Shown one piece after another: positions 330 to 63,985 of a stretch of DNA of 64,000 nt. Position numbers and translations under genes: made by a program. The first letter of the stretch is position 1, and every line of letters begins with the position of its first letter. A model generated the notes under the pieces. It was not told the DNA's origin, did no database searches, and saw only the letters and a program-made list of their open reading frames with translations. Origin of the DNA: an uncultured virus (IMG/VR IMGVR_UViG_2924862757_000006) (Duplodnaviria; Heunggongvirae; Uroviricota; Caudoviricetes); IMG/VR virus record IMGVR_UViG_2924862757_000006. The stretch is one strand, 5' to 3'.

Positions 330-525
330 AACACAAAAACTAAACTAGACACATTTTTGGAAATCTAGTTGTATATTCTGTATATCAATTATATAGTCCT
401 GCTTTTTTTTATGGTTCGACCATAATTCGACCATTTGATGTTTTATGTACTATCAAGATTTTTGAGTTTCATATTTTATATTACTTTAAATATTATATTT
501 GCGCATCACTAAAATTGATTATCGT

Positions 526-759: not shown

Positions 760-1278
760 TTAAGAAAGTAATGCAGCCTTGCTTAAATTATATATGTTTA
801 TAACTATATCCTTCATGGACCATATAGAATATAATAGAAGGTAAAGTAACAAGAATGATGCTGTATTATTAACATAATCGCTATATAAAAATTGGATGTT
901 TAGACTATGTATATATTTAAATATAATACTAAAAAAAATACCAATAAACATAATAATCATACATACTACAAATGAGGAATTTAGTCCAGAGAGTAGTTTT
1001 ATTCCTTCATCATCTTTTAAATCATTTAGTAGATTAGAGCAATATATAGATAATAAAATGGCATATGCAGCTAATACGAGTGAGACAATGGTAGGGATAA
1101 TTCCAATACATAAGTCTATGATTGTACTTAATGACTGATATGATGGGATATCACTAAAGTTTCCTATAATAATCATCGAAATAGAGAGAAGTATTGGTAC
1201 TAAAGAATCTTTTAAAATATCTTTACTAGTATATACTTTAAAAATACTTCTCCATCCAAATTCATCTTTAGCATTCAT
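760..1278 (-). CDS. Multi-pass membrane protein, partner of the upstream gene (candidate defence)
   Basis: About four hydrophobic segments; 8 nt downstream of 1287..2156; very AT-rich. Confidence 0.75.
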   Translation of the reverse strand: MNAKDEFGWRSIFKVYTSKDILKDSLVPILLSISMIIIGNFSDIPSYQSLSTIIDLCIGIIPTIVSLVLAAYAILLSIYCSNLLNDLKDDEGIKLLSGLNSSFVVCMIIMFIGIFFSIIFKYIHSLNIQFLYSDYVNNTASFLLLYLLLYSIWSMKDIVINIYNLSKAALLS

Positions 1279-1286
1279 GATTCTAG

Positions 1287-2156
1287 TTATTGATTATGCC
1301 CAAATATACTACATAATTCTGTGTATATCTTATTAAAATAATTTTTTTCTGTATCTTTAATTTCTATTCTCATAGGATAATCTTTTGTATCAATCTTGAT
1401 CGGTTTTCCATTTTCTTTTTCTTGTACTCTAGCTATCATTGTACCGTTACTACGTGACATGTTGACTATTGCTTCGATTATTCCATCTTCTTCTTTTTTA
1501 AGAGGTTCTTCGTCTGTTCCTTCCATTTTGAATTTAACATTTCTTGGTCTTGCATCTTTTATTTTTTTGTCAAACTTTGCAATAAATCCTTCTGTAAAAT
1601 CTTTATTTGAAAAAGTTATATCTGCATCAATTAAAAATATTTTATGTGCGTTTAAAACTCTTGTGATGATATCTCTACTTTTCTCTATATTAATATCAAC
1701 AGCTCCATTACTAGCTGTTTCTGCAAAACTATGGGTAAGATATTTCATCACTTGATTTATACCGATTTTAGAGCTTATGCTGACTATTAATCGGTGCACT
1801 TTAGGGATAAAATATAGCTCTACCTCTTTTAGGTTAGCAACAATATCAGGATTAATGTCAATCTTTACCTGTGTTTTCGTTTTTTTATCATAAAAAGCAT
1901 CTGGATTAAGAATATCATATGAAATTAATTTGATTAATAGCATTCTTGGGGTACCGTCATCCTCTAAATATTCGCTTTTAAGAAGCTGTTTTATACTGAT
2001 ATATCTATTACTATGTAATAATATGAGGGGATCTTTAGCATATAGTTGCTCAAATAATTTAACATATTTTTGTGGCGTTTGTTCGTATCTAGACTTGATG
2101 TTTATAACATACATTTTTCCGCCAATGATTCTTTTACTTTCTTTTGTCTGCTCCAT
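1287..2156 (-). CDS. DUF4747-like protein (candidate defence/lysogenic cargo)
   Basis: 289 aa; YFIPKVHRL segment and pairing with a TM gene resemble DUF4747 loci (by eye). Confidence 0.55.
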   Translation of the reverse strand: MEQTKESKRIIGGKMYVINIKSRYEQTPQKYVKLFEQLYAKDPLILLHSNRYISIKQLLKSEYLEDDGTPRMLLIKLISYDILNPDAFYDKKTKTQVKIDINPDIVANLKEVELYFIPKVHRLIVSISSKIGINQVMKYLTHSFAETASNGAVDINIEKSRDIITRVLNAHKIFLIDADITFSNKDFTEGFIAKFDKKIKDARPRNVKFKMEGTDEEPLKKEEDGIIEAIVNMSRSNGTMIARVQEKENGKPIKIDTKDYPMRIEIKDTEKNYFNKIYTELCSIFGHNQ

Positions 2157-2534: not shown

Positions 2535-2915
2535 TTATCCGATATTTCTTTCATTCTTCAACATAGCCAGTTCACCCTTTAATTTTTGGTTTTCTTCCAA
2601 AAGCCGTTGGGTAAGCACTGTCTTCTCATTGATTTCATCCTGCAAATTGGCTATGGTATATACAATACTTTTCAATTTGTCCATTCCTGGTTCTGTTTCT
2701 TCTTTTTGAAGAAGCATGGAGCCTTTTCCTCTTAACAGCCATTCTGCGGATATTTCTTCATTTGAGAATAATATAGCATTGACTGTAGTCAAACTAAGTT
2801 CTCTCATTCCATTTAATTGGTTGGAGAATGTGTTGTCTTTTAATCCACATTTCATTGCAAATGCTCTTGTACTAAGTCCGTAGTATGCAATAATGTCTTT
2901 AATTCTTGTAATCAT
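2535..2915 (-). CDS. CI-like XRE/HTH prophage repressor with C-terminal coiled coil
   Basis: HTH (LSTRAFAMKCGLKDNTFSNQLNG) and ISAEWLLRGKGSM motif; divergent from the lytic operon; start moved to ATG 2915 because the upstream part is operator/promoter DNA. Confidence 0.85.
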   Translation of the reverse strand: MITRIKDIIAYYGLSTRAFAMKCGLKDNTFSNQLNGMRELSLTTVNAILFSNEEISAEWLLRGKGSMLLQKEETEPGMDKLKSIVYTIANLQDEINEKTVLTQRLLEENQKLKGELAMLKNERNIG

Positions 2916-2935: not shown

Positions 2936-2955
2936 ATTCTCTCAAATGAGAGAAT
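2936..2955. promoter_or_regulatory. Operator O1 (palindrome)
   Basis: ATTCTCTC-AAAT-GAGAGAAT perfect inverted repeat. Confidence 0.75.
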
Positions 2956-2970
2956 AATTTAAGTTTTAAA

Positions 2971-3002
2971 TTTGCATATTCTCTCAAACGAGAATATATT
3001 TG
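2971..3002 (+). promoter_or_regulatory. Rightward lytic promoter with operator O2 in the spacer
   Basis: TTTG (2971-74), 20 nt, TATATTTG (2995-3002); palindrome ATATTCTC-N6-GAGAATAT at 2976-2997 shares ATTCTCTCAAAYGAGA with O1. Confidence 0.8.
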
Positions 3003-3072: not shown

Positions 3073-3390
3073 GTGACAGACATGAAAAGATTTGATTTAT
3101 CCGAAATAATGAGAAATGCTCATAGAACCTATAAATATTCAGGCAAGAAGCAGGGAAAAACTTTTGGAGAGGTTCTGAAAGCTACTTGGAGACTTGCTAA
3201 ACTTCAAGAAAATTTCTCACAGGAAGCCATGAAAGCAAGAACGGATAAATTCTTATCAGAAAGAAACGAGGTAATGAGTAAAGCGGCTAAAGCTACAAGG
3301 CATGAGGGGTACAATAATCTTAATATACCCGCTTCCGCTTACTACAACCCAAATAGTACTCATTACGGTGCACATTACGTCGGAGATTAA
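3073..3390 (+). CDS. First early gene, basic hypothetical protein (Cro/antiterminator position)
   Basis: First ORF after the lytic promoter; LSEIMRNAH...LKATW motif. Confidence 0.7.
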   Translation: MTDMKRFDLSEIMRNAHRTYKYSGKKQGKTFGEVLKATWRLAKLQENFSQEAMKARTDKFLSERNEVMSKAAKATRHEGYNNLNIPASAYYNPNSTHYGAHYVGD

Positions 3391-3405: not shown

Positions 3406-3642
3406 ATGGATAAAAGAACCGAACTAGAAATACAGCGAGACAAATATGAAGCTGTGATTGAAGAACGAGACGCGTTGATCAACTCTTTGAGAGGTGAAAA
3501 TGAAAAACTCAAACGAGATTTAGAATCAGAACGTGGATTTTATAGAGAGAAAGTTTCCCAATGTGATGATTTGAAGAAATTTATTGAATCGCAAAGAAAC
3601 TTAATGGATATAGTTTTGAAGAACAACCAAAGTATTCTCTAA
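3406..3642 (+). CDS. Coiled-coil hypothetical protein
   Basis: Heptad-rich ORF in the early operon. Confidence 0.7.
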   Translation: MDKRTELEIQRDKYEAVIEERDALINSLRGENEKLKRDLESERGFYREKVSQCDDLKKFIESQRNLMDIVLKNNQSIL

Positions 3643-3736
3643 CCCTCACTAAAGTCAAACCAAACCGCCGGTTATCCGGTACCCAGTCCGGTCTTTGAGC
3701 CTGCCCTTGAAGGGAGACTGGGAACAACAGAGAAGA

Positions 3737-3747
3737 GTTCTTTGACA
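3737..3747 (+). promoter_or_regulatory. boxA-like antitermination element
   Basis: GTTCTTTGACA resembles rrn/lambda boxA (GCTCTTTAACA); preceded by hairpins including CCCTTGAAGGG. Confidence 0.5.
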
Positions 3748-3771
3748 TATTGGTAAAATGGTGTTTTGGAA

Positions 3772-3916: not shown

Positions 3917-4050
3917 GGTGATGTAGCTCAGGCAGGTTAGAGCGCTGTGTGTGGTGGATGGTTGAGAGTTCGAGTCTCTCAAGAAATACTCTTAGCTTAA
4001 CGGAAGAGCACCACAAGCAGAGGTCGGCGGTTCGAATCCGCCCATCGCTT
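3917..4050 (+). ncRNA. tRNA-like element with a second, permuted T-arm/D-arm unit replacing the anticodon loop
   Basis: Acceptor GGTGATG/CATCGCT, D-arm GCTC..GAGC, T-arm GGCGG-TTCGAAT-CCGCC; insert has GAGAG-TTCGAGT-CTCTC then TAGCTTAACGGAAGAGC. Confidence 0.8.
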
Positions 4051-7126: not shown

Positions 7127-7197
7127 GCCGGGATAGCTCAGTTGGTTAGAGCGCATGTTTCTACATGAGGTCAGCGGTTCGAATCCGTTTCCCGGCT
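7127..7197 (+). ncRNA. tRNA-like element with a 4-nt anticodon loop
   Basis: Acceptor GCCGGGA/TCCCGGC, D-arm, T-arm AGCGG-TTCGAAT-CCGTT; anticodon arm CATGT-TTCT-ACATG. Confidence 0.85.
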
Positions 7198-7293: not shown

Positions 7294-7391
7294 GAAGGAA
7301 TGGCGGAATTGGTAGACGCAAGTATGCAGATAGATTGAAGAAAGTCATACATAGGTAATCTGTCATCCCGGTTCGAGTCCGGGTTCCTTCA
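7294..7391 (+). ncRNA. tRNA-Leu-like element with an oversized anticodon loop
   Basis: Acceptor GAAGGAA/TTCCTTC, Leu-type D-arm GGCGGAATTGGTAGACGC, T-arm CCCGG-TTCGAGT-CCGGG; GTATG/CATAC stem closes a 19-nt loop. Confidence 0.8.
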
Positions 7392-8003: not shown

Positions 8004-8095
8004 AAAATGGCGTTAAAATGGCGAAGTTTCTGTTTGCTAAACTTGTCAATAACGATTACCTTTACTGATGTAATAAACTAAAAGTCAAACCATTA
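8004..8095 (+). promoter_or_regulatory. Repeated phage middle-promoter/leader, copy 1
   Basis: AAAATGGCG x2, TTTG-N20-TACCTTTA, AAAGTCAAACCA leader; recurs at 15324, 20218, 23152. Confidence 0.8.
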
Positions 8096-8105
8096 ATTCA
8101 GAATT

Positions 8106-8702
8106 ATGAAAGAATTAGTAACCATTCAGCAAAAGCTGAAAGCCCCGAAAGGGCAATTTAATAAGTTCGGTAGTTACAAATACCGTAGTTGTGAGGATAT
8201 TCTTGAGTCAGTGAAACCTATTCTGACTGAAACAAAGTGTTCGTTAACTCTCAGTGATGAGATGGTGCCAGTAGGCAATAGAATTTATGTAAAAGCAACT
8301 GCCACTTTAACCAACGAAAAAGGGGAAAAAGAAATAGTGACTGCTTTTGCGAGAGAAGAGGAAACAAAGAAGGGAATGGATGGCAGCCAAATTACCGGAG
8401 CCTCATCTTCTTATGCAAGAAAGTATGCTCTTAACGGTCTATTTTGCATTGATGATACAAAAGACAGTGATGCAACTAACACTCACGATAAAGAAGACGC
8501 ACAACAGCCTGCAAAAACACCGGCTAGTATGAAGAATCCAGTTTATACTGGTGCCCAACTGAAAAAGGCTATTGCTGACATGCTTGCTGTCAAAAGCAGA
8601 GCTGAACTTGAAAAAGTATGGTATGCTAATCCGGCTATGCAAAATGATAAAGAGTTTGTAAATGCTTGTATGGAAATGGGCAAAATTTATCCTGCATCAT
8701 GA
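8106..8702 (+). CDS. ERF-family single-strand annealing protein
   Basis: LKAPKGQFNKFGSYKYRSCEDI and QITGASSSYARKYAL signatures. Confidence 0.9.
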   Translation: MKELVTIQQKLKAPKGQFNKFGSYKYRSCEDILESVKPILTETKCSLTLSDEMVPVGNRIYVKATATLTNEKGEKEIVTAFAREEETKKGMDGSQITGASSSYARKYALNGLFCIDDTKDSDATNTHDKEDAQQPAKTPASMKNPVYTGAQLKKAIADMLAVKSRAELEKVWYANPAMQNDKEFVNACMEMGKIYPAS

Positions 8703-11132: not shown

Positions 11133-12865
11133 AACCAATTTATGTGACTAAGACGCCCAATCTGTACCGGATTCAGTTCGAGTATCACCCAAAGTTGGTC
11201 GAGGTCATAAAGATGATACCAAGTAAGCCACGCTATGACGGAACAGACCGGGCGTGGCTTGTTAGTATCAATGATACGCGTTATCCTATTGGACGTGATG
11301 CGAATTGGTATGTGAGAGCTTTTGCGCAATGGGCTGTTCAGATGCGTTATTGTTCTACTGTCAAGGAACGTGAGGTAACTGAAGATATTAATTATGATAT
11401 TCCTCCGATGAAACCTTTTGTCGGTGAACACTATATGTTACTTCAACCTTACGAGTATCAACTTGAAGGAGTACAGTATGCAATAGAGCACAAACGCTGT
11501 TTTTTCGGTGACCAGCCCGGATTAGGTAAAACATTGCAAGCCATATGTGCAGTTGTTAAAGCACATAAGGAAGCGCCCATTTATGGTGAGTCTTTTCCAG
11601 TACTTGTAATTTGCCCTGCTGCGTTGAAAGTAAACTGGCAGCGTGAGTTTAAGAAGTTCGCAGGTATGAATTCGATTATCCTTGATGACAGAAACCGACA
11701 GTCCTGGCAATCATTTTATGAGTGTAAAAAGTCTGATGGCAACCCACTTTGTGAGGTGTTCATTACTAATTATGAATCGCTTAATAAATTTTTTGTAAAA
11801 GCTGTAAATAAGGAATCCAAGCTTACAATGAAAAGTATTGCTTTCGATCAGCGTGTCTCTCTGTTTAGGTCTGTTATCATTGACGAATCTCATAAATGCA
11901 AATCAAGTAAAACTCAACAGAGCAAATATGTTGAAGGTATCTGCAAAGGTAAACGTTATATATTCGCATTGACCGGTACTCCTGTTGTTAACAATAATAC
12001 AGACTTGCTACAACAGCTAAAAATATTAGGTCGATTAGAGGACTTTGGAGGTTATAGCCGGTATGTTGAAAGATATTGTGATGGTCCCAAACAGGCATCC
12101 AACGTTAAAGAGCTGAATTGGCGACTATGGAATACTTGCTTCTTTCGTCGTGAGAAGTCAAAGGTGCTTACACAACTTCCGGACAAGACTCGTCAATACT
12201 TGACAGTTGATATCACTACCACCAAAGAGTATAAGGCTGCCGAGGCTGATATGGTAAAATACTTGAAGAAGTACAAGAACGCTTCGGATGAACAAGTGCA
12301 GAAATCAATGAATGGTGCCGTTATGGTGCAGATGCAGCTTTTAAAGCAGATATCTGCCAGAGGTAAAATCAAGGCTGTTTGTGAATTTGTCCATGATGTT
12401 ATCGACGGTGGTGAGAAGCTGATACTTTTCGGTTACTTGAAAGAAGTTGTAGCAGAACTGAAAAAGGAATTTCCTAAAGCTGTTACTGTAACGGGTTCCG
12501 ATAGTGTCAACCAAAAGCAATATGCCGTTGACTCTTTCCAAAATAATCCGGATTGTAAACTGATTATTCTGAATTTCAAATCGGGCGGTACCGGGCTTAC
12601 TTTGACTGCTGCCAGTCGTGTTGCTTTTATAGAGTTCCCTTGGACTTTCAGTGATTGCGAACAGGCAGAAGATAGAGCACACCGTAACGGTCAAAAGAAC
12701 AACGTTAACTGCTATTACTTCTTAGGTAAGGATACTATTGACAAGTATATGTATGATGTGATTCAAACAAAGAAGAACATTGCTAACGGTGTAACCGGAA
12801 CGGATGACCAAGTAGAAGAGAATATGGTGAATCTTGCAATGGACTTGTTTAGGGATAAATTATGA
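11129..12865 (+). CDS. SNF2-family helicase (HARP/SMARCAL1-like)
   Basis: DQPGLGKT, DESH, LTGTP, GTGLTLTAAS, QAEDRAHRNGQ motifs. Confidence 0.92.
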   Translation: MKPIYVTKTPNLYRIQFEYHPKLVEVIKMIPSKPRYDGTDRAWLVSINDTRYPIGRDANWYVRAFAQWAVQMRYCSTVKEREVTEDINYDIPPMKPFVGEHYMLLQPYEYQLEGVQYAIEHKRCFFGDQPGLGKTLQAICAVVKAHKEAPIYGESFPVLVICPAALKVNWQREFKKFAGMNSIILDDRNRQSWQSFYECKKSDGNPLCEVFITNYESLNKFFVKAVNKESKLTMKSIAFDQRVSLFRSVIIDESHKCKSSKTQQSKYVEGICKGKRYIFALTGTPVVNNNTDLLQQLKILGRLEDFGGYSRYVERYCDGPKQASNVKELNWRLWNTCFFRREKSKVLTQLPDKTRQYLTVDITTTKEYKAAEADMVKYLKKYKNASDEQVQKSMNGAVMVQMQLLKQISARGKIKAVCEFVHDVIDGGEKLILFGYLKEVVAELKKEFPKAVTVTGSDSVNQKQYAVDSFQNNPDCKLIILNFKSGGTGLTLTAASRVAFIEFPWTFSDCEQAEDRAHRNGQKNNVNCYYFLGKDTIDKYMYDVIQTKKNIANGVTGTDDQVEENMVNLAMDLFRDKL

Positions 12866-15003: not shown

Positions 15004-15192
15004 ATGAAAGTTACAATTTACTGGGTTACTAAAGATTCGGATAAAATTGCTCGTATCAGAGAGCGTTTCGGTATTGGAACGTATCGAAGTGTGAACGGTG
15101 AAACGCCTGCTGAAATACGAGAAGAAGATATGGAACTTCTTCGGGAAACTGAAAGAAGAGGATTTATTCAAATACGTAATAAGCCCACATGA
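15004..15192 (+). CDS. Hypothetical protein
   Basis: 62-aa ORF following the loader. Confidence 0.65.
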   Translation: MKVTIYWVTKDSDKIARIRERFGIGTYRSVNGETPAEIREEDMELLRETERRGFIQIRNKPT

Positions 15193-15223: not shown

Positions 15224-15323
15224 NNNNNNNNNNNNNNNNNNNNNNNNNNNNNNNNNNNNNNNNNNNNNNNNNNNNNNNNNNNNNNNNNNNNNNNNNNNNN
15301 NNNNNNNNNNNNNNNNNNNNNNN
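15224..15323. other. Assembly gap (100 N) flanked by identical 32-nt repeat copies
   Basis: 15192-15223 is identical to 15324-15355. Confidence 0.98.
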
Positions 15324-15415
15324 AAAATGGCGTTAAAATGGCGAAGTTTCTGTTTGCATAACTTGTCATTTTACGATAACTTTACTGATGTAATGAATTA
15401 AAAGTCAAACCAATA
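15324..15415 (+). promoter_or_regulatory. Repeated middle-promoter/leader, copy 2
   Basis: AAAATGGCG x2, TTTG-N20-TAACTTTA, AAAGTCAAACCAA. Confidence 0.8.
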
Positions 15416-15425
15416 TAATTAAATT

Positions 15426-17141
15426 ATGGAAGTACAAAACATTAGAATTGACCTTATTAGTCCTTCTCCTTTGAATCCGAGAAAGACTTTTGATGAAGCA
15501 GCTCTTGAAGAGCTCGCAAGCAACATTGAAAAGCAAGGCTTATTGCAGCCTATCACCGTCAGGGTAGCCAAATCCGAAGATTTTACTGACTTAGAGACTG
15601 GCGGTGTTACGACAATTCCCTGTTCGTATGAAATTGTTTGCGGTGAGCGTCGTTTTCGGGCTGTGTCACTTTTGAAAGCAAAGGAAGATGAAGCGAATGT
15701 TGCAAAAATCAAAGCCCATCGAAAAAAGTCGGAGAAATTTCAGACAATATCCTGCATTGTCAGAGAAATGACAGACGATGAGGCTTTTGAAGCGATGATT
15801 ACCGAGAATCTTCAAAGAAAAGATGTTGATCCCATCGAAGAAGCTTTTGCCTTTGCGCAGTTGGCTGAGAAAGGACGGACTTTGGAAGATATTGCTCTTA
15901 AATTTGGAAAGTCTACTCGTTTTGTCTTTGACCGTATAAAGCTAAACGGTCTTATCCCGGAACTGAAAGAACGTGTAAGAAATGGAGACATACCATTATC
16001 CGGTGCTATGATTCTTTCAAAACTTGACGAAGAAACTCAAAAGGAGTTCAATGAGGAAGAAGATGAACAATGCACGACATCTATGATACGTGACTATGTT
16101 AGTAATTCCTTTTTAGAACTGGATAAAGCGGATTGGATTAAAGAAGACGCAGACAATTGGGAAAATGGCGAATTTAAGCAGTGCTCTCAATGTGAATCTA
16201 ATACCTGTAATCATGGTTGTTTGTTCTATGAGATGAATAATAAGAATGCTCGCTGTATCAATGCTGCCTGTTTTTATAGAAAGCGGATTGCATATGTAAT
16301 CCGAAAGATTCTGCTTGAGAGTGAGAATCTTGTTAAAGTAGGTGAACCTTTTTCATTCGGAAAAACTGTTATTGTAGCAAAAGCAGAATATTATTGGAGT
16401 GATGAAAGAAAAGCACAATATGAAAGTGCTTTAGAAGCCGTAAAGCAACTTGGATTTGAAGTAGTTAATCCAGATGAGGTGTTTAGGAGTTTATGTTATT
16501 ATAGTGCTGATGATGAACGGACACTAAAAATGCTTGATGAAGGTGAAATTTATCGCTGTATCTCATTCTTTGGTAATTATAATCCAGAATTTAATGTAAA
16601 ATTCTATTACACAAAGAAAGAACTGGTTTCTAGTACTGCCGCTGTTGCCGATCTAAAAGAGATAGAAAGGGAAAAAATAAACGCCCAATTAAAAAGAGCG
16701 AAGGATATAGTCAAGGAGAAGTCTGCTGAAGAAATGCGTAAGTGGGCGCAAGAGAAAACATATTATCAGAGAACAAAAGAATTCTCTGAAAATGAACAAC
16801 TTGTTTTTGATGTGCTGGTTCTTAGCGGTTGTAGCAGTACTTATCTTGAAAAACTGAATTTGAAAAAATGGAATGGTGAGAGTGATTTTGTAAATTATGT
16901 CAAAAACAACCAAGCTGACCGACACCAATGGTATAGAGCCTTTATTGCTGAATGCTTATCATCGAATAATGTGAATTTCTACTCCTATTTGCAAAAGTGT
17001 CAGAAAATCCTTTTTGCAGAACAATATCCGGATGATTTCAAAGCGCTCTCTAAGAAACTTGCGGATTCATATGATAAGAAAGAAAAGAAGCTCAAAGAAA
17101 GACTGAAAGAGCTAAATAACGATAACACAGAGGAAGCCTAG
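15426..17141 (+). CDS. ParB/RepB/Spo0J-family protein
   Basis: NPRKTFD, GLLQPITVR, CGERRFRA, ENLQRKD, HTH. Confidence 0.9.
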   Translation: MEVQNIRIDLISPSPLNPRKTFDEAALEELASNIEKQGLLQPITVRVAKSEDFTDLETGGVTTIPCSYEIVCGERRFRAVSLLKAKEDEANVAKIKAHRKKSEKFQTISCIVREMTDDEAFEAMITENLQRKDVDPIEEAFAFAQLAEKGRTLEDIALKFGKSTRFVFDRIKLNGLIPELKERVRNGDIPLSGAMILSKLDEETQKEFNEEEDEQCTTSMIRDYVSNSFLELDKADWIKEDADNWENGEFKQCSQCESNTCNHGCLFYEMNNKNARCINAACFYRKRIAYVIRKILLESENLVKVGEPFSFGKTVIVAKAEYYWSDERKAQYESALEAVKQLGFEVVNPDEVFRSLCYYSADDERTLKMLDEGEIYRCISFFGNYNPEFNVKFYYTKKELVSSTAAVADLKEIEREKINAQLKRAKDIVKEKSAEEMRKWAQEKTYYQRTKEFSENEQLVFDVLVLSGCSSTYLEKLNLKKWNGESDFVNYVKNNQADRHQWYRAFIAECLSSNNVNFYSYLQKCQKILFAEQYPDDFKALSKKLADSYDKKEKKLKERLKELNNDNTEEA

Positions 17142-20217: not shown

Positions 20218-20310
20218 AAAAAAGGCGTTTAAATGGCGTCCATTCTGTTTGTCATATTCGCCTTTTTTAGCTAATTTTACAGATGTAATAAACTAAAAGT
20301 CAAACCATTA
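20218..20310 (+). promoter_or_regulatory. Repeated middle-promoter/leader, copy 3 (diverged)
   Basis: AAAAGGCG/AAATGGCG, TTTG-N20-TAATTTTA, AAAGTCAAACCA. Confidence 0.75.
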
Positions 20311-20320
20311 AATTAGAATT

Positions 20321-20896
20321 ATGATTATAAGAACAGTTTGCGGATATGATTTCTTTGAGGTGAGTTCTGCAATGCAGAAAGCCATTAGGCGAGCCGACAC
20401 CGGGGTAGCCGGCTTTTTTGCATTGGAACTTTGGGCGAGTGGGTACCGCGATTATGTGTGGAAGCGTCTGTTTACCATTAGTGCTGAAGATTGCTATGGA
20501 ATCATTACTAAAGAGATAGAAGCATTGTGGCAGGGGCATGAGCTGGTAAACAAGACTGCTACTGAACCCAAAGGGAGGATATTTGTCAGTAAAGCTGTTA
20601 TTCTCCTTTGTGAATGTAGAAAGAATCGTGATGCGGATCATTTGCAAAACTTCATCTATGATAGAAAGGATATTGATATAGAAAAGTGGATAAATGATGT
20701 CAGGCGTTACCCTATTCCTATTCCAGATTACACTTTCGATGTACATACACGAAAGGGTAAAAAACATGGGAGAACCAAAGAAGAATTCTTTCAGGAAGAA
20801 TACAAGGCGTTACAACCTCGTGCTCCTGGTTTATTCGATGATTTGGTTCAACCCAGTCAACCAAAGTTATTTAATGATGAAACCACGGCTAAGTAG
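20321..20896 (+). CDS. MgsA/RarA C-terminal-like protein lacking the ATPase domain
   Basis: SAMQKAIRRAD...RLFTISAED...IPDYTFDVHT; no Walker A. Confidence 0.7.
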   Translation: MIIRTVCGYDFFEVSSAMQKAIRRADTGVAGFFALELWASGYRDYVWKRLFTISAEDCYGIITKEIEALWQGHELVNKTATEPKGRIFVSKAVILLCECRKNRDADHLQNFIYDRKDIDIEKWINDVRRYPIPIPDYTFDVHTRKGKKHGRTKEEFFQEEYKALQPRAPGLFDDLVQPSQPKLFNDETTAK

Positions 20897-20945
20897 CTGT
20901 GGTTTCATCATTTTTCATATAAGTCAAACCAATTTAATTAAAAAA

Positions 20946-21593
20946 ATGAACACGTATTACAAATTTGCGCCAAATGTATTTTTGGCAAAGTGTGATGAGA
21001 AGCACGAAAAAGGTGAAACTATTGAAGTTACCACCAAGTATGGAAAAGAAAATGAATGTATTGTTTTCAACCTCATTTACGAACGTGATGGATTCTATTA
21101 CTACTCAATCGTACGGGCTGATGGCTTTAATGTGCAAGAGTGGGCCAAACAAAGAGCTGAACGTCGTCATGAATGGGCTACATCTGCTGTACAGAAAAGC
21201 TGTGAATATTACAACAAGTCCAATAAAGATAAGGATTTTCTTTCTCTAGGTGAGCCTATCAAAGTGGGACATCATAGCGAGAAGCGACACAGAAAAGCGA
21301 TAGATGATGCGTGGAACAATATGGGGAAAAGCGTTGAGTTTAGCGATAAGGCTGCCGAACATGAAAGAGTTGCGAAGTATTGGGAAAAAAGGGCTAATAC
21401 GATAAACTTGTCCATGCCGGAAAGTATAGATTTCTACGAACATAAGTTGGAACAAGCAAAAGAATATCACGAAGGATTGAAGTCCGGTAAGTACCGACGC
21501 GAGCATACATACGCTATGGCTTATGCCAATAAAGCAGTAAAAGAGGCTAAAAAAAATTATGACCTTGCAGTAAAGCTGTGGGGCGATGTTTAA
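20946..21593 (+). CDS. DUF3560-like protein
   Basis: GEPIKVGHHSEKRHR motif. Confidence 0.75.
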   Translation: MNTYYKFAPNVFLAKCDEKHEKGETIEVTTKYGKENECIVFNLIYERDGFYYYSIVRADGFNVQEWAKQRAERRHEWATSAVQKSCEYYNKSNKDKDFLSLGEPIKVGHHSEKRHRKAIDDAWNNMGKSVEFSDKAAEHERVAKYWEKRANTINLSMPESIDFYEHKLEQAKEYHEGLKSGKYRREHTYAMAYANKAVKEAKKNYDLAVKLWGDV

Positions 21594-22430: not shown

Positions 22431-23153
22431 ATGAAATATTATGCTTCAGTCAGCTTTGGAAAGGATTCCTTGGCAATGCTTTTCATGCTAATAGATAAAG
22501 GATATCAGTTGGATGAAGTCGTTTTCTATGATACAGGTATGGAATTTCAGGCAATCTATAACACTCGTGATGCTGTTCTTCCAATTCTTAAAAAACTTGG
22601 CATTAAATATACAGAACTGCATCCGGAGCAACCTTTTCTTTGGACAATGTTTGAAAGGCCGGTTAAGAAAAGAGGGACCAATATTATCCATAAAAAAGGA
22701 TATAGTTGGTGTGGGGGAACATGCCGATGGGGAACGAGTGAAAAACTTCGTGCGTTGAAAGCTCACACAAAAGATGGAATTGATTATGTCGGTATTGCTG
22801 CCGATGAGATGCATCGCTTTGAAAAAGAAAATCGGGCTAATCGGGTTTTACCACTTCGTGACTGGGGGGTTACAGAAGCAGATGCACTCCAGTACTGTTA
22901 TACAAAAGGCTTTGTTTGGTGTGAGGATGGAGTAAGGCTATATGAACTACTTGATCGTGTGAGTTGCTGGTGTTGTGGAAATAAGAATTTGAAGGAGTTG
23001 AAGAATATGTATTTGTACCTTCCATGGTATTGGAAAAAGCTGAAAGAACTTCAGTTAAATACCGATAGGCCCTATCGTCGTAATAGTGGAGAAACCATTT
23101 TTGATTTAGAGGAAAGATTTAGACGTGAATTGTTGAAGAAAAAAACTGATTAA
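22431..23153 (+). CDS. PAPS reductase-family (PP-loop) protein
   Basis: SFGKDS, DTGMEF, GIAADE, RVSCWCC. Confidence 0.88.
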   Translation: MKYYASVSFGKDSLAMLFMLIDKGYQLDEVVFYDTGMEFQAIYNTRDAVLPILKKLGIKYTELHPEQPFLWTMFERPVKKRGTNIIHKKGYSWCGGTCRWGTSEKLRALKAHTKDGIDYVGIAADEMHRFEKENRANRVLPLRDWGVTEADALQYCYTKGFVWCEDGVRLYELLDRVSCWCCGNKNLKELKNMYLYLPWYWKKLKELQLNTDRPYRRNSGETIFDLEERFRRELLKKKTD

Positions 23154-28074: not shown

Positions 28075-29088
28075 TCATTTGTTTGTAGAATCAGCTATAA
28101 ATTCATGAAAAAGAGAGTTAATAGTCTGAATTACGATTTCTTTTTCTGTATCATATCCAGATATAGGAAGTTCGAGGGCAATAATGTTATTGAATATATC
28201 AAATTTCTTTAATAAAGAAATTGTTTTGAGAGTTGATTGCGAGCTCATTGAATTGAATAGTATGACTGTTAACTCATCTGAGGATAATTGTGCTCTAAAT
28301 ATTTTAGAATAGTCATTGGGGTATTTAAAATTTTGGATTGAATCCAACAGATAATATATGTTTCTATGGTATTGCCCTAAATATTGTCCATATTGCCCAT
28401 ATAAATAATCTCCGACATTTCTTATGAACTTATAGAGCTGTTGGTATCTTTTTTCTATACAAATCCTATTACAGATTGATGCAACAATTATACGATACAT
28501 TTCATGAATTTTGCTTGACATTATTATGCCTTTTATTTCGTATATAGTATCGTAATAATATTTGGGATCCCTACTTTTTAATAATACATTTAATTCTGTA
28601 GTTGAATGAACTCCAAACTTAGTATAAATCTCCAGAAATGCTTGCTCGTCTAACTTACTGACTTGTGTTAATTCTGATGGAAATTTTTCTCCATCTTTTA
28701 TAAAATGATATATTACATAAGCATAGAATAATGAACGCGCTTCATGTGCGTATGCTTTGAATGCTTCAATTCCTGTTTTCTCAATTTGGTGTTCAGTATA
28801 TTTGTTGGTGTCGACTTGATGCTGATATAATCCCAACAAATTATAAAATGTTGACCTTTCATTATCAATTTGTCTATTTATTTGTGAGTCTTTTATTGTA
28901 TAAAGTACTCCAATGAAAGCAAGTAATCCTGTAATTGAACCTAAATAACTGCCGAAATCAGCAAAATCATTATGATTATAGGACAGTCCGTGATGAAATC
29001 TATATACATATACTAATATTAATATTAGAGTAAATATGGCTGTTGCAATTAATGCGTATTTGATTATATCTATTTGCGGTCTTTTCAT
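28075..29088 (-). CDS. Putative phage abortive-infection (AbiC-like) membrane protein
   Basis: N-terminal TMs with FGSYLG; C-terminal YSKIFRAQLSSDELTVILFN; own -7 TACATTTG at 29118-29125 (minus); AT-rich and reverse-oriented. Confidence 0.72.
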   Translation of the reverse strand: MKRPQIDIIKYALIATAIFTLILILVYVYRFHHGLSYNHNDFADFGSYLGSITGLLAFIGVLYTIKDSQINRQIDNERSTFYNLLGLYQHQVDTNKYTEHQIEKTGIEAFKAYAHEARSLFYAYVIYHFIKDGEKFPSELTQVSKLDEQAFLEIYTKFGVHSTTELNVLLKSRDPKYYYDTIYEIKGIIMSSKIHEMYRIIVASICNRICIEKRYQQLYKFIRNVGDYLYGQYGQYLGQYHRNIYYLLDSIQNFKYPNDYSKIFRAQLSSDELTVILFNSMSSQSTLKTISLLKKFDIFNNIIALELPISGYDTEKEIVIQTINSLFHEFIADSTNK

Positions 29089-56590: not shown

Positions 56591-57379
56591 ATGACGAATG
56601 AACAAAGCGCAACGCTGCTTCGCTTGAATAAACAGGCACAAGTAGCAGCACTGAACGCCGTTGGATTCTCGGATATCACCGAGAATTCCCGCGCATCTGA
56701 ATTTGGACAACGTATCAAGTGGGCTGCCGGCCTGCTTGATTTGAATCTTGCCTGTAACCGCATCTCGGATAACTCCAAATGGTATTTCACCCGTGAGGAA
56801 TGGGATTCCCTCACGGTTACCAACAAACAGTTGTTTATCAAACGCGGTCTTCGTATCCGGGCACATGGACACTCCTTCGTAATTTCCGCCCAGGAGTGCT
56901 ATAATGCCGACATGACTACCACCTTCTACTGGGGCGGTCAGGGCAAAGCCATAGATGGCCTGAATCAAAAAGGACTGGGCGCCATGTATGGCTGCTTCAC
57001 GGGTGAGGAAGATACTGACCTCATTATCGCAACTCTGAAAGACCAAAATAATAGTGGTGTGATCGGTGCGCCAGCTGCCGAAGCCGCCCGTGCATACCGT
57101 GCCTACACTTTGGAAAGTGACGGTATCGAGGATGAATCTAACTGGTTCCTTCCTTCATCCGGCCAAATGCTTCTGATGTACCGCTATCGCGATAAAATCA
57201 ATGAGATGATGCGTACCTTTTGGAGTAGTGACAGTATGCTGATGACTGATAAATACTACTGGTCATCAACAATTTGGGATACTAACTCCGCCTGGGCGTT
57301 CGAACTGAATACCGGGCGTATTACGAATCAAAACAAAAATTCAAATCTTCTCCATGTGAGAGCTGTTGCTTCTGAATAG
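56591..57379 (+). CDS. C-type-lectin-fold tail protein, non-diversified paralog of the DGR target
   Basis: Aligns end to end with 57405..58214 (GAPAAEAARAY, TLESDGIED, WxLP, YWSST). Confidence 0.82.
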   Translation: MTNEQSATLLRLNKQAQVAALNAVGFSDITENSRASEFGQRIKWAAGLLDLNLACNRISDNSKWYFTREEWDSLTVTNKQLFIKRGLRIRAHGHSFVISAQECYNADMTTTFYWGGQGKAIDGLNQKGLGAMYGCFTGEEDTDLIIATLKDQNNSGVIGAPAAEAARAYRAYTLESDGIEDESNWFLPSSGQMLLMYRYRDKINEMMRTFWSSDSMLMTDKYYWSSTIWDTNSAWAFELNTGRITNQNKNSNLLHVRAVASE

Positions 57380-57404
57380 TATTAACCTAAAATTATATAA
57401 TAAA

Positions 57405-58214
57405 ATGGATAAAAATATCGCTAACGCAATGCTTATGCGCCTGAATAAACAAGACCAAGTTGCAGCTTTGCAATCAATCGGTTTTACAACCGTCAATGAA
57501 AATACCCCGGCGAGTGACATCGCCAAGTATATGCAATGGGCAGGTACGCTTCTTGACCTTTCTTTGGCTACTCTCCGAATTGAAGACGGTGAACAAGTCT
57601 TTTTCACGGCTTCCGAATGGAACTCCATGAGCGCAAATAACCGCTCCAAGTATATCCGTATTGGCATCCGACTTCGTGCCGAATGCCACCAGTTCATTAT
57701 CGCCAAAAGTGACTGCGTTGACGCAGGCGGCAACAAAACGTTCAAATGGGGTGGCTACGGAACCGACTTACGCGGCCTGAAAAACTACGGTAGTGGTAAC
57801 CAAGGACTCTATGATACCTTCGACGGCAAGGAAAATACCGATGTTATAATAGAAACCCTTGCAGGCGTCAAGGACACCCAGGGAACTGTCGGCGCCCCTG
57901 CCGCCGAAGCTGCCAGAGCCTATAAAGCCTGTACGCTTGAATCTGACGGAATTGAAGATACAACCGTGTGGAACCTGCCCGCATTGGGAGAACTTATGCT
58001 TATGGCCAAGTATAAAACCGAAATCAATGAGCTCATAACTTCTATGTTTGGTAATCAAAATATGTTTACAAACGATTGGTATTGGTCTAGTACCGAATAT
58101 GACGCTTCCAGCAGTTGGGCCGTGGGCTTCCTCGGCGGCAGCGTCAACACGTACGGCCGCCAGGGCGCGTACCGGGTTCGTCCCCTCGCCGCAATAAACA
58201 CTTTATCCCTTTAA
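57405..58214 (+). CDS. DGR target protein (CLec-fold receptor-binding protein)
   Basis: YWSSTE...W.V.F...RVRP C-terminus encoded by the VR; start moved to ATG 57405. Confidence 0.92.
   Translation: MDKNIANAMLMRLNKQDQVAALQSIGFTTVNENTPASDIAKYMQWAGTLLDLSLATLRIEDGEQVFFTASEWNSMSANNRSKYIRIGIRLRAECHQFIIAKSDCVDAGGNKTFKWGGYGTDLRGLKNYGSGNQGLYDTFDGKENTDVIIETLAGVKDTQGTVGAPAAEAARAYKACTLESDGIEDTTVWNLPALGELMLMAKYKTEINELITSMFGNQNMFTNDWYWSSTEYDASSSWAVGFLGGSVNTYGRQGAYRVRPLAAINTLSL
58104..58194 (+). repeat. DGR variable repeat (VR)
   Basis: 91-nt match to the TR with 15 mismatches, all opposite TR adenines. Confidence 0.97.
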
Positions 58215-58243
58215 TTCTTTATCCCTTAGAGAGTTAGCTAAAT

Positions 58244-58265
58244 AAAAGCCCCGACAGGGGCTTTT
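58244..58265 (+). promoter_or_regulatory. DGR target-recognition hairpin
   Basis: AAAAGCCCC-GACA-GGGGCTTTT; GRNA-type loop 50 nt downstream of the VR. Confidence 0.8.
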
Positions 58266-58360
58266 CAGTTTCACTTTTTTGAGCTAAAATTGTGTTAATT
58301 GCTTTACAGTTATTAACTTTGCGCCCTCTAATACATACATTAAAATATTAAAAAATTAAC

Positions 58361-58768
58361 ATGGCACTTACACAAGACCTTCCTATATCAAATTCGATGT
58401 ATAAGCTTCTGAACCTTATCATTGATGCCCGGCAACAATTCCCCAAGGCGTTCCGGTATGAATTTGGTACGGAGTTGATGATGCTTGCCGTCCATTGTTG
58501 CGAATATATCCGTTATGCAAATACAGATATGAACCTTGAGCACCGTGCAGATTATCTGATGAAGTTTTTGTGTGAGTTTGATGCATTGAAATTACTGCTA
58601 AGAGTGTGTGAAGAACGACATTTGACCAGCCTGACTCAAACTGCCGAAATCTGTCTGCTTGCAGAGAGCATCGGTAAGCAAAGTACCGGTTGGTACAAAA
58701 AAACGGTTGCAGATCTCCAACGGCAAAAAGCTAACGGATCGCAACAAGTCGCAAAGCCGGAGTCATAA
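58361..58768 (+). CDS. avd: DGR accessory variability determinant (four-helix bundle)
   Basis: LPI...FPKAFRYEFG...IGKQSTGW; lies between VR and TR/RT. Confidence 0.88.
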   Translation: MALTQDLPISNSMYKLLNLIIDARQQFPKAFRYEFGTELMMLAVHCCEYIRYANTDMNLEHRADYLMKFLCEFDALKLLLRVCEERHLTSLTQTAEICLLAESIGKQSTGWYKKTVADLQRQKANGSQQVAKPES

Positions 58769-58782
58769 TCGCCAAGGGGATT

Positions 58783-60204
58783 ATGAGTGAGCAATTAGAA
58801 TTATTTATTGGGCATCCCCCCGGTGATGAGCCGGGAAAGACTAAGATAGCGGATGCAACGGCTTCCAGCAGTTGGAACGTGAACTTCAACAACGGCAACG
58901 TCAACACGAACAACCGCCAGAACGCGAACCGGGTTCGTCCCCTCGCCGCAACAGGTAATATAATCTATGACATACTTCTTAGCAGTATTTTCGAAGCATC
59001 CGAAGATTGTGCCAGGCAGAAAAGAACGAGTACGGATTGTGTTGAGTTCTATAATGATTATCAGTCCGCATTGGTGCGGCTATGGTATTCTATTATTTAC
59101 GGTGAATATGTACCGGACTTTTCAAAAGTATTCATACGGACTTACCCGGTATATCGGGAGGTTTTTGCCGCCGCTTTCATTGATCGTGTTGTCCATCACT
59201 GGATCGCTCTTCGTATCGAGCCGATCTTAGAGGAACGCTTCCGGGAACAAGGAAACGTCTCCAAGAACTGCCGGAAAGGTGAGGGATGCTTGTCTGCCGT
59301 GCACTATCTGAATAACATGATAGTCGAGGTCAGTGAGAATTATACTGCCGATGCGTACATTTTCAAAGATGACCTGTTCAGTTTCTTCATGTCTATCTCG
59401 AAATCGTTGGTATGGGAAATGCTGAACATATTCGTAAGGGACAATTATAAAGGCGATGATATTGAATGTTTGCTTTACCTTCTAGCCGTTACTATCTTTC
59501 ATTGTCCACAAAATAAGTGTATCAGACGCTCTCCCGTCTCCATGTGGGACAAACTTCCCAGTAATAAAAGTCTGTTTCATAATGACCCTGACAGGGGAGT
59601 GGCTATCGGGAACCTGCCGTCACAACTCATAGCTAACTTCTTGGCGTCTGTTTTCGATTATTATGTAATGGTGATGTTAGGATTCAGGCATTATGTACGC
59701 TTTGTTGATGACTTTTGTATTGTGGTGAAATCTCCGGAAGAAATATTGTCCAAAGTCCATCTTCTTGATGGTTTCCTGAAAGAACAACTCCTTTTACGGT
59801 TGCATCCACGCAAACTGTATCTTCAGCATTATAAAAAAGGAGTCTTGTTTGTAGGGGCGTTCATTTTGCCTGGTAGAATTTATGTATCTAACAGGGTGGT
59901 TGGTAACACATATAACGCTGTCAGGAAATTTAATAAAATAGCTGAAAATGGATTTGCAGAAGCGTATGTTGAGAAATTTGTGAGTACAATGAATTCTTAT
60001 TATGGCTTGATGAAACACTTTGCAACGTACAATATCCGCCGTAGAATTGCAGCGATGTTACTTCCTGAATGGTGGGAATATGTTTATATCGAAGGACATT
60101 TTGAAAAGTTTGTATTGAAGAATAAATATAACCATAGAAAACAACTAATTAAACATATCAAAAAACATGGATCAAAAAAATATCTTACCGCGTGGGATTG
60201 CTAA
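58783..60204 (+). CDS. DGR reverse transcriptase
   Basis: REVFAA.FIDRVVHH, IGNLPSQ (DGR-type SQ), YVRFVDDF, FVG. Confidence 0.96.
   Translation: MSEQLELFIGHPPGDEPGKTKIADATASSSWNVNFNNGNVNTNNRQNANRVRPLAATGNIIYDILLSSIFEASEDCARQKRTSTDCVEFYNDYQSALVRLWYSIIYGEYVPDFSKVFIRTYPVYREVFAAAFIDRVVHHWIALRIEPILEERFREQGNVSKNCRKGEGCLSAVHYLNNMIVEVSENYTADAYIFKDDLFSFFMSISKSLVWEMLNIFVRDNYKGDDIECLLYLLAVTIFHCPQNKCIRRSPVSMWDKLPSNKSLFHNDPDRGVAIGNLPSQLIANFLASVFDYYVMVMLGFRHYVRFVDDFCIVVKSPEEILSKVHLLDGFLKEQLLLRLHPRKLYLQHYKKGVLFVGAFILPGRIYVSNRVVGNTYNAVRKFNKIAENGFAEAYVEKFVSTMNSYYGLMKHFATYNIRRRIAAMLLPEWWEYVYIEGHFEKFVLKNKYNHRKQLIKHIKKHGSKKYLTAWDC
58861..58951 (+). ncRNA. DGR template repeat (TR)
   Basis: Ten AAC codons; otherwise identical to the VR. 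Confidence 0.97.
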
Positions 60205-63413: not shown

Positions 63414-63487
63414 AAAAAAAGTGAGGGGAACCACCCCCTCACCAAAGTCAAACCAAAATAATCCGAATTATGTCCGTATTATCTTGA
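63414..63487 (-). ncRNA. Predicted ~75-nt trans-acting sRNA
   Basis: -7 TATCTTTG (63493-500, minus), 5' hairpin, single-stranded seed TTTGGTTTGACTTTG, 8-bp GC terminator and U7. Confidence 0.68.
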
Positions 63488-63571
63488 TGTTGCAAAGATA
63501 CTACTATTTTTTGATAAAGCAATAAAAATCCCTGCATCGGCTCAAATGCAGGGATGGTGTCAAATAAGAGC

Positions 63572-63985
63572 TTAACTGATTTTTAATGATGTCTGATGAA
63601 TCATTTCGCTAACATCGTTCAAAGCGTTCAGGAACGTTTTGAGTTCATTGTCAGTAAAGCGAGCCTTTTTCCCGTTGACCATATTCCCGTTAATACGCTG
63701 ATATAGCCAGTTTCTACTTTTACCAAAATATTTCTTTGCAATATAACTGAATGAGATTGCTTCGGGCAATTCTCCAAGTTTATCACGTAATATGGCTTCT
63801 TCCGCTCTTTCTATATAATCATTGCAGGCGTTTACCGTTGCTTTTAGCCCAGTTTCAGATGCTTTTTTGTAGGCTTCCTTTTGGGCTTCCGGTAGTTTAT
63901 TATATTTATCCTGCATTTCCTTTTTGAAAGCTTCTTTTTCTTCTGTGGTTTTTAGTTCTTTGAATCTTTCAAAGTCAGCCTGCAT
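63572..63985 (-). CDS. DUF5053-like HTH protein; start may lie beyond the window
   Basis: ISFSYIAKKYFGKSRNWLYQRING...FT. Confidence 0.8.
   Translation of the reverse strand: MQADFERFKELKTTEEKEAFKKEMQDKYNKLPEAQKEAYKKASETGLKATVNACNDYIERAEEAILRDKLGELPEAISFSYIAKKYFGKSRNWLYQRINGNMVNGKKARFTDNELKTFLNALNDVSEMIHQTSLKIS

What the first reader, a model, noticed from the sequence alone, without database searches (positions are those of the whole stretch)
3643..3664. 22-nt complement of the sRNA in the early lytic transcript: candidate sponge or attenuation switch
Seen: CCCTCACTAAAGTCAAACCAAA matches 63436-63457 at 21/22 positions, and the single difference is a G:U pair in the RNA duplex. It is not upstream of an ATG. 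It starts right after the stop of 3406..3642, ahead of the boxA-like element, and pairs into the sRNA terminator stem. Inference: once CI repression is lifted the early RNA titrates the sRNA (a toggle), or the sRNA attenuates the early transcript here.
Basis: partly seen in the sequence, partly recalled or inferred. Interest (0 to 1): 0.78.

Follow-up and report, generated by a model that had tools for sequence, protein, structure and literature searches.

The report
Phage early-transcript trap for small RNA
A common gut-Bacteroides prophage family keeps, in its first lytic transcript, a stretch that mirrors its own predicted silencing RNA and changes in step with it across related phages, so switching on the lytic genes may also mop up the RNA that holds them down; neither RNA has been shown at the bench.

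Summary
The 21/22 match is real. It joins the first repressor-controlled transcript of a Salyersviridae-type Bacteroides prophage to a predicted 75-nt sRNA gene (minus strand, ~63414-63488, own promoter and terminator). The sRNA has two seeds that mirror the leaders and start codons of four phage genes (ERF, ParB-like, two more), a motif not enriched in the host. The 3643 site is a different kind of partner: it runs into the sRNA terminator stem (13 of 14 early sites against 3 of 54 leader sites in relatives) and co-varies with the sRNA in five linker forms, with G:U-compatible substitutions. In three clades the same extended site sits before the second early gene's AUG instead, so there it is also a translation target. 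No terminator or refolding appears downstream, so a structural attenuator is unsupported. Best reading: a chbBC/ChiX-like trap that titrates and destabilises the sRNA once repression lifts (0.5); main rival: the sRNA silences leaky early RNA (0.3). Selected RNA-RNA pairing itself ~0.9. No transcript or duplex shown; no matching paper in five searches.

The parts
3643..3664 (+). Extended sRNA-complementary site (seed plus 7-8 nt into the sRNA terminator stem), directly after the stop of ORF 3406-3642
   Evidence: present in 74 of 74 repressor-picked loci that hold the boxA-like motif
63414..63488 (-). Predicted ~75-nt sRNA: hairpin 1 with loop CAUAAUU (anti-start-codon), linker UUGGUUUGACUUU (anti-leader seed), intrinsic terminator; ends are estimates
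   Evidence: no Rfam family at gathering score
63493..63500 (-). TAnnTTTG -7 promoter box of the sRNA gene
   Evidence: consensus from PMC7366714 passage; a TAnnTTTG-like box precedes the variants
63420..63443 (-). sRNA terminator stem-loop; its 5' arm is what the 3643 site invades
63530..63553 (-). Hairpin ending the upstream DUF5053 transcript; separates it from the sRNA promoter
   Evidence: DUF5053 hit on 63572-63985
3667..3722 (+). Two conserved hairpins after the site
3737..3748 (+). boxA-like 12-mer, identical to one in a host rRNA leader; the name boxA is recalled
2936..3002 (+). Early promoter region: two related palindromes (likely repressor operators) and a TATATTTG -7 box at 2995-3002
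   Evidence: operator role is inferred
2535..2915 (-). Repressor-like gene, divergent from the early operon
   Evidence: phrog_2328 transcriptional repressor, E 9e-8
3406..3642 (+). Second early ORF (78 aa, coiled-coil-like); five divergent sequence groups in relatives all end at the site
8081..8109 (+). Leader target before the ERF ssDNA-annealing gene (seed + AATTATG), in a repeated promoter cassette
15401..15429 (+). Leader target before the ParB-like gene, in the cassette
20296..20324 (+). Leader target before ORF 20321-20896, in the cassette
20921..20948 (+). Leader target before an ORF starting at 20946, outside the cassette
330..350 (-). Salyersviridae att core (21 of 21), the real prophage end
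   Evidence: motif from PMC8354205

Best explanation
The site is a terminator-invading trap for the phage's own silencing sRNA. In the lysogen a housekeeping promoter beside the integrase module makes the sRNA (inferred), which blocks translation of replication and recombination genes transcribed from internal promoter cassettes by pairing over their leader motif and AUG (pairing computed, co-variation shown). The early promoter is held off by the repressor (inferred). When repression lifts, or on fresh infection, the first early transcript exposes the 22-nt site right after a stop codon; it binds the same seed, goes on into the terminator stem and opens it (computed), which should expose the sRNA 3' end to decay and use it up (inferred from ChiX and FnrS). 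The internal leaders are then freed. Because both RNAs are consumed, the pair should also absorb leaky early transcription and give a threshold. Shown: sequence, conservation, co-variation, two classes of partner. Not shown: either transcript as a discrete RNA, the duplex, decay, direction of the effect.
For: Two classes of partner: 13 of 14 early sites pair at least 4 nt without gaps into the terminator arm, against 3 of 54 leader sites (with the G163 site refiled as early; Fisher p 2e-10, kin not independent). Five linker forms co-vary between sRNA and early site in the same record: A (CAC-Y-AAAG), D (one A less: G165, G170, G225), C (one A more: G154, G205, G231), H (five-base insert: G198), G (AAACA: G163); each site hybridises best with its own linker class in 6 of 6 rows, and in 5 of 6 when opening costs are counted. 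No A/D cross pair in 21 A/B/D records that hold both elements. Substitutions in such pairs are G:U-compatible in the predicted orientation (T/C at 8; G176 A/G; G163 C/T). Perfect 22-mers against the sRNA 5' part would bind at -20 to -27 kcal/mol and leave the terminator intact, whereas those that straddle the linker and stem like the natural site bind at -16 to -21: the costlier direction was kept. In clades A, B, D there is no start codon to block. Precedent: chbBC spacer and AsxR destabilise ChiX and FnrS through the terminator stem (PMC4104026, passages).
Against: In clades C, H, G the extended site overlaps the start region of the second early gene (11 of 12 full-length loci, plus G163), which is what a plain target looks like; in H it enters the stem by only 4 nt. 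G185 and G186 carry a one-base bulge against their sRNA; L304 has the seed without the extension. Computed binding of the site (-17 to -20) is not clearly stronger than that of the best leader (-18 to -19). A terminating ribosome would cover part of the site. RNA data were contigs only and cannot show a discrete sRNA, its strand or level. Only three D/D records and one each of H and G.
Confidence: 0.5

Rival explanations
1. The early transcript is the target, not the regulator: the sRNA silences leaky early RNA in the lysogen, by blocking the second gene's start (clades C, H, G) or by a 21-22 bp duplex that is cut by RNase III or invites polarity upstream of the boxA-like element (clades A, B, D). 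This is the P1 c4 / P4 CI logic.
For: Site overlaps an ATG region in three clades; it lies in the first operon, ahead of a likely antitermination element; c4, sar and CI RNA act this way (PMC12197685 and PMC4825925, passages). The BV01 prophage is tightly repressed and not induced by DNA damage (PMC8354205, passages).
Against: Does not explain why early sites, and almost no leader sites, extend into the terminator when the cheaper 5' direction is open. No + strand terminator at 3660-3760; downstream fold unchanged in 6 of 7 cofolds. It is not exclusive of the best explanation: co-decay does both.
Confidence: 0.3
2. sRNA-guided processing signal: pairing just after the stop codon directs a cut that separates the two early ORFs from the hairpin-boxA-tRNA-like RNA downstream, as GadY does for gadX-gadW (recalled).
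For: Fixed position at the stop codon in five ORF groups; a structured non-coding tract follows.
Against: Needs the sRNA to be abundant during lytic growth; in C, H, G the site lies a whole gene upstream of the hairpins and the duplex is only 17-19 bp.
Confidence: 0.08
3. AAAGTCAAACC is a binding site for a phage protein on DNA or RNA; the copies share it and co-vary with the protein, without RNA-RNA pairing.
For: All copies are on one strand and follow promoters; a protein site would also co-vary.
Against: Does not explain the anti-AUG loop kept in 8 of 8 aligned variants while the stem changes, the second-seed co-variation in G198 and G154, the matching linker indels reaching into a terminator arm, or the G:U bias.
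Confidence: 0.07
4. Neutral relic: an old duplication, an att-like end repeat, or copies homogenised by recombination.
For: The copies are direct repeats near the two ends of a prophage; the phage has an ERF annealing protein.
Against: The true att is at 330-350 and the integrase lies outside the second copy. The site is unchanged while the repressor falls to 46% identity, the upstream ORF is replaced and, in G176, the downstream hairpins too. The T/C difference persists next to the shared deletion in D phages, which conversion would erase.
Confidence: 0.05

Closest known systems
chbBC intercistronic trap for ChiX (MicM), Salmonella/E. coli (as described in PMC4104026, passage)
   Same: Site in the spacer of an inducible polycistronic RNA; complementary to a multi-use sRNA and to its terminator stem; expected to destabilise it.
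   Different: Here both partners and all predicted targets are in one phage genome, the inducing signal would be loss of repression, and the host is a Bacteroides; no sequence likeness; no experiment.
AsxR and AgvB anti-sRNAs of EHEC prophages (PMC4104026, passages)
   Same: Phage-encoded RNA that neutralises an sRNA, AsxR through the terminator.
   Different: Those are separate small RNAs aimed at host sRNAs; this is a segment of the early mRNA aimed at the phage's own sRNA.
P1/P7 c4 RNA, P22 sar RNA, P4 CI RNA (PMC12197685, PMC4825925; passages)
   Same: ~70-80 nt phage RNA that pairs in trans with phage transcripts to hold lysogeny; seed in a loop; sequence variants could give heteroimmunity.
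   Different: No Rfam match; targets here are several replication/recombination leaders, not an antirepressor or the RNA's own leader; own promoter; no decoy site is described for them in the passages read.
GibS and FopS sRNAs of Bacteroides thetaiotaomicron (PMC11697453 section 8 and passages; PMC7366714 passages)
   Same: Trans-acting Bacteroides sRNAs that cover start-codon regions in a host without Shine-Dalgarno sequences.
   Different: FopS is a single-stranded 5' stretch plus terminator in 12-15 copies aimed at host genes; this RNA has two hairpins, one copy, and a phage-specific seed.

Membership tests
Trap-mRNA sponge (chbBC/ChiX type) | Site in an untranslated spacer of a polycistronic RNA | tested here: met
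   Follows an in-frame stop in 23 of 24 distinct contexts, the 24th an unrelated GC-rich hit
Trap-mRNA sponge (chbBC/ChiX type) | Covers the sRNA seed and extends into the terminator stem | tested here: met
   (computed pairing, co-variation)
Trap-mRNA sponge (chbBC/ChiX type) | Inducing the RNA lowers sRNA level and frees its targets | not testable with these tools
   Only contigs of RNA runs were on offer
Trap-mRNA sponge (chbBC/ChiX type) | Site is not itself a translation start | tested here: inconclusive
   Met in clades A, B, D; not met in C, H, G
c4 / CI / sar phage immunity RNAs | Match to the family's covariance model | tested here: not met
   No hit at gathering score in the window; three weak unrelated hits at E up to 5
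c4 / CI / sar phage immunity RNAs | Trans pairing through exposed seeds with the phage's own lytic-side RNAs | tested here: met
   Computed and co-varying; functional likeness only
c4 / CI / sar phage immunity RNAs | Target is an antirepressor mRNA, or premature termination in the RNA's own operon | tested here: not met
   Targets are ERF, ParB-like and unknown ORFs; no terminator after the site; two target ORFs have no assigned function
FopS sRNAs | Single-stranded 5' part plus terminator, 12-15 copies per genome | tested here: not met
   Two hairpins; one sRNA copy in G001; GTTTGAC absent from six supplement files of PMC11697453 (weak test)
attL/attR direct repeat | Repeat flanks the whole prophage, integrase inside | tested here: not met
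   att core at 330-350; repressor outside the first copy and integrase outside the second
Salyersviridae (host prophage) | 21-nt att core | tested here: met
   21 of 21
Salyersviridae (host prophage) | Whole-proteome clustering with BV01 | not tested
   BV01 sequence was not compared
Intrinsic-terminator attenuator | Binding creates or frees a U-tailed hairpin downstream | tested here: not met

The most novel reading that the evidence does not exclude
Salyersviridae prophages run an all-RNA second layer of their lysis-lysogeny switch: one sRNA silences a regulon of internal lytic leaders, and the first repressor-controlled transcript carries a co-evolving decoy that opens the sRNA terminator and destroys it, making a threshold or latch. 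Linker variants would define RNA-level immunity groups, and orphan sRNA genes left in prophage remnants (G085) could protect hosts against related phages.
Probability: 0.4. Interest if true: 0.85.

Novelty: new variant of a known kind. Interest (0 to 1): 0.72.

Why it matters
How temperate phages of gut Bacteroides choose and leave lysogeny is open: BV01, the model of this family, is tightly repressed and was not induced by DNA damage or antibiotics (PMC8354205, passage). This gives a concrete, small, mutable candidate for a post-transcriptional layer, with natural compensatory variants as ready-made controls. A phage sRNA paired with its own decoy inside the early transcript was not found in my searches; known sponges of phage origin act on host sRNAs.

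Tried and rejected
att-site reading: rejected. Generic Bacteroides leader motif: rejected; AAGTCAAACC occurs 15 times in G001, 6 in the 61-kb prophage and 9 elsewhere (reversed control 22), and those 9 do not show the leader-plus-AATTATG layout. Fold-switch attenuator: an early cofold paired the sRNA 5' end with hairpin 2, but with the full hairpin present this vanished. My first reading that clades C and H lack the site was wrong: the pattern missed a shifted form, found by the unbiased cofold scan. Apparent site-only or sRNA-only records: G085 is a remnant without early region; G214, G213, G212, G215, G180, G182 end before the sRNA; G239 lacks the right arm; G122 and G027 have the sRNA on short contigs and no site found; G235-G238, G240, G241, G243, G244 (site only) and G232, G233 (sRNA only) were not opened. 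Leader sets bind their own sRNA best only for G198 and G163 of 10 sets; other sRNAs (F, E) often bind better. Structure covariation in 8 aligned sRNAs is modest: 3 pairs changed on both sides (2 of 500 shuffles), covariation score not above shuffles. RNA runs (4 of 20 laid, all contigs): three cover the sRNA place in one contig with its flanks, one stops at its start; two do not cover the early site; in X1 a contig ends at the site's 5' edge with a 109-nt hole over site, hairpins and boxA; none of this is evidence. Named phage collection: only a first-ORF homologue in BS-TP3 and a similar terminator in BT-TP2, neither with the seed system. ESM Atlas gave no named family for ORF 3082-3390. Look-ups of earlier findings by sequence and by place found nothing.

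Full report
Observation. The 22-mer is at 3643-3664 and, with one T/C difference, at 63436-63457, both on the + strand; 0 of 100 shuffles give two matches. The window is a prophage: repressor-like gene at 2535-2915, ERF, helicase, ParB-like, terminase, portal, capsid, tape measure, a DGR, lysin and DUF5053. It carries the 21-nt att core of the Salyersviridae at 330-350 (motif from PMC8354205), so the repeat is not the att site; in relatives the integrase lies beyond the second copy.

The partner. The right-hand copy lies in a stand-alone unit on the minus strand: hairpin ending the DUF5053 transcript (63530-63553), TATCTTTG box (63500-63493), about 75 nt folding into two hairpins (z -5.2), U tail. 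It is a predicted sRNA; Rfam has no family for it. Its linker is the complement of AAGTCAAACCA in four leaders (8081, 15401, 20296, 20921), three of them in a repeated 109-nt promoter cassette, and its apical loop CAUAAUU is the complement of the AATTATG start context of three. In a cofold scan of 4254 windows, six of the seven best non-self windows are the 3643 site and these leaders; the other is 12511 inside the helicase gene. The motif is phage-specific: 6 of 15 copies in genome G001 lie in the prophage. The loop and linker are invariant in 8 of 8 aligned variants while the stem changes (structure covariation modest). In G198 and in the C clade the second seed changes together with the leaders, and in G163 the first seed does.

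Conservation of the site. Among 151 genomes of the genus, 11 match the 21-mer at up to 2 mismatches, all exactly; 8 hold both elements, 3 the sRNA only, none the site only. Of 80 viral loci picked by the repressor protein (46-100% identity), 74 hold the boxA-like motif and all 74 have the site; 2 more are cut short but have it; 4 show neither. Of 105 loci picked by the boxA-like motif, 74 have the site after the stop, 14 belong to another phage group, and 17 do not have it there; of those 17, 11 have an extended site about 310 nt upstream, 5 are too short to tell and 1 has the seed only. The site follows an in-frame stop of five divergent ORF groups and is kept in G176, whose hairpins differ entirely.

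Co-variation. In records that hold both elements the linker form agrees: 15 A/A, 3 D/D with one A less in both (G165, G170, G225), G176 with a U:G change, and G185 and G186 with a one-base bulge, 21 in all, no A/D cross pair (four of the genomes have the two on separate contigs). Five further records show C (G154, G205, G231), H (G198) and G (G163) forms, each mirrored by its early site. Each site hybridises best with its own linker class in 6 of 6 rows, 5 of 6 with opening costs. I put selected RNA-RNA pairing at about 0.9.

Two classes of partner. Leader sites pair with linker and loop and leave the terminator intact; early sites pair with linker and the terminator's 5' arm and break it. Counted over 14 phages: 13 of 14 early sites against 3 of 54 leader sites enter the stem by 4 nt or more (one search gave 12 of 13 and 4 of 55; the G163 site was refiled as early once one search showed it directly after the first early ORF's stop). 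The three leader exceptions are one homologous G:U-rich site. A 22-mer against the 5' part would bind more strongly without touching the terminator, so the direction looks selected.

What differs between clades. In A, B and D the site follows the second ORF and has no start codon. In C, H and G it lies between the first ORF's stop and the second ORF's ATG, so it is also a translation target there. Which is older was not tested.

Mechanism. Best reading (0.5): a trap like the chbBC spacer for ChiX or AsxR for FnrS, both described as destabilising an sRNA through its terminator stem (PMC4104026, passages). The repressor-controlled early RNA would use up the sRNA and free the internal leaders. 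Main rival (0.3): the sRNA silences leaky early RNA, as c4, sar and CI RNA do (PMC12197685, PMC4825925; passages). The two overlap if both RNAs decay together. A fold-switch attenuator has no support. Processing signal 0.08, protein site 0.07, relic 0.05. Promoter activity, repression, transcripts and decay are all inferred; four RNA runs were contigs only and settle nothing.

Literature. Searches: Bacteroides + prophage + small RNA + lysogen + antisense (17 papers, listing only, none on this), phage-encoded sRNA + sponge terms (listing), Bacteroides + RNase III + sponge + sRNA (listing), Salyersviridae + small RNA, prophage induction + target mimic terms. The BV01 paper has no occurrence of small RNA, sRNA, noncoding or intergenic in its main text (passages read, supplements not opened; its Figure S1 coverage may bear on expression). 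FopS paper: section 8, passages and a supplement term search. The library lacks most subscription papers and bioRxiv supplements were closed. GadY, the name boxA and the absence of Hfq in Bacteroides are recalled. Earlier AI notes describe analogous multi-target phage sRNAs in other genomes, none with a decoy site in the lines shown; I did not test them.

Verdict. Real, conserved and co-evolving; a new variant of known sRNA-plus-trap logic inside a phage; direction of action open. Interest 0.72.

Noticed in passing
G085 (L395:19277-19360): A complete genome keeps an intact sRNA gene with promoter in a prophage remnant that has lost the early region and all leader targets; a possible domesticated defence against related phages.
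   Followed up: partly
window 12538-12572 (+): A second complement of the sRNA (hairpin 1 arm and loop, with G:U pairs, about -15 kcal/mol) inside the helicase ORF; not among the top hits in five relatives, so probably chance.
   Followed up: partly
window 8004, 15324, 20219, 23152 (+): Repeated 109-nt promoter cassette with doubled AAATGGCG, a TAnnTTTA box instead of TAnnTTTG; the copy at 23152 has a degenerate seed. May need a phage activator or sigma factor.
   Followed up: partly
window 15224-15323: Run of N between two starts of the cassette; an assembly gap, so a fifth cassette at 15187 may be an artefact.
   Followed up: no
window 3917-4050, 7127-7197, 7294-7391 (+): Three tRNA-like genes; the first has a ~60-nt insert in place of the anticodon arm and the second an odd anticodon loop.
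   Followed up: no
L544:4598-4852, L491:3886-4143, G163 early region: In clades C, H, G the first early protein is a very acidic ~85-aa protein, DNA-mimic-like by composition; possible anti-defence protein.
   Followed up: no
window 57366-60204 (+): DGR: Lcl C-terminal target with variable repeat 58104-58194, Avd, reverse transcriptase; the template repeat (58861-58951) lies inside the 5' end of the RT ORF as called.
   Followed up: no
L297, L313, L337 and 11 more: A group of larger gut phage contigs carries the same boxA-like motif directly after a tRNA gene, without the site.
   Followed up: no
window 28075-29088 (-) and 760-2156 (-): Cargo genes: putAbiC-domain protein, and DUF4747 with a membrane-protein neighbour; possible defence functions.
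   Followed up: no
L110:17937-17983 (phage BT-TP2): Intergenic unit with a similar terminator loop and a promoter box but another upstream sequence; perhaps an analogous sRNA.
   Followed up: no
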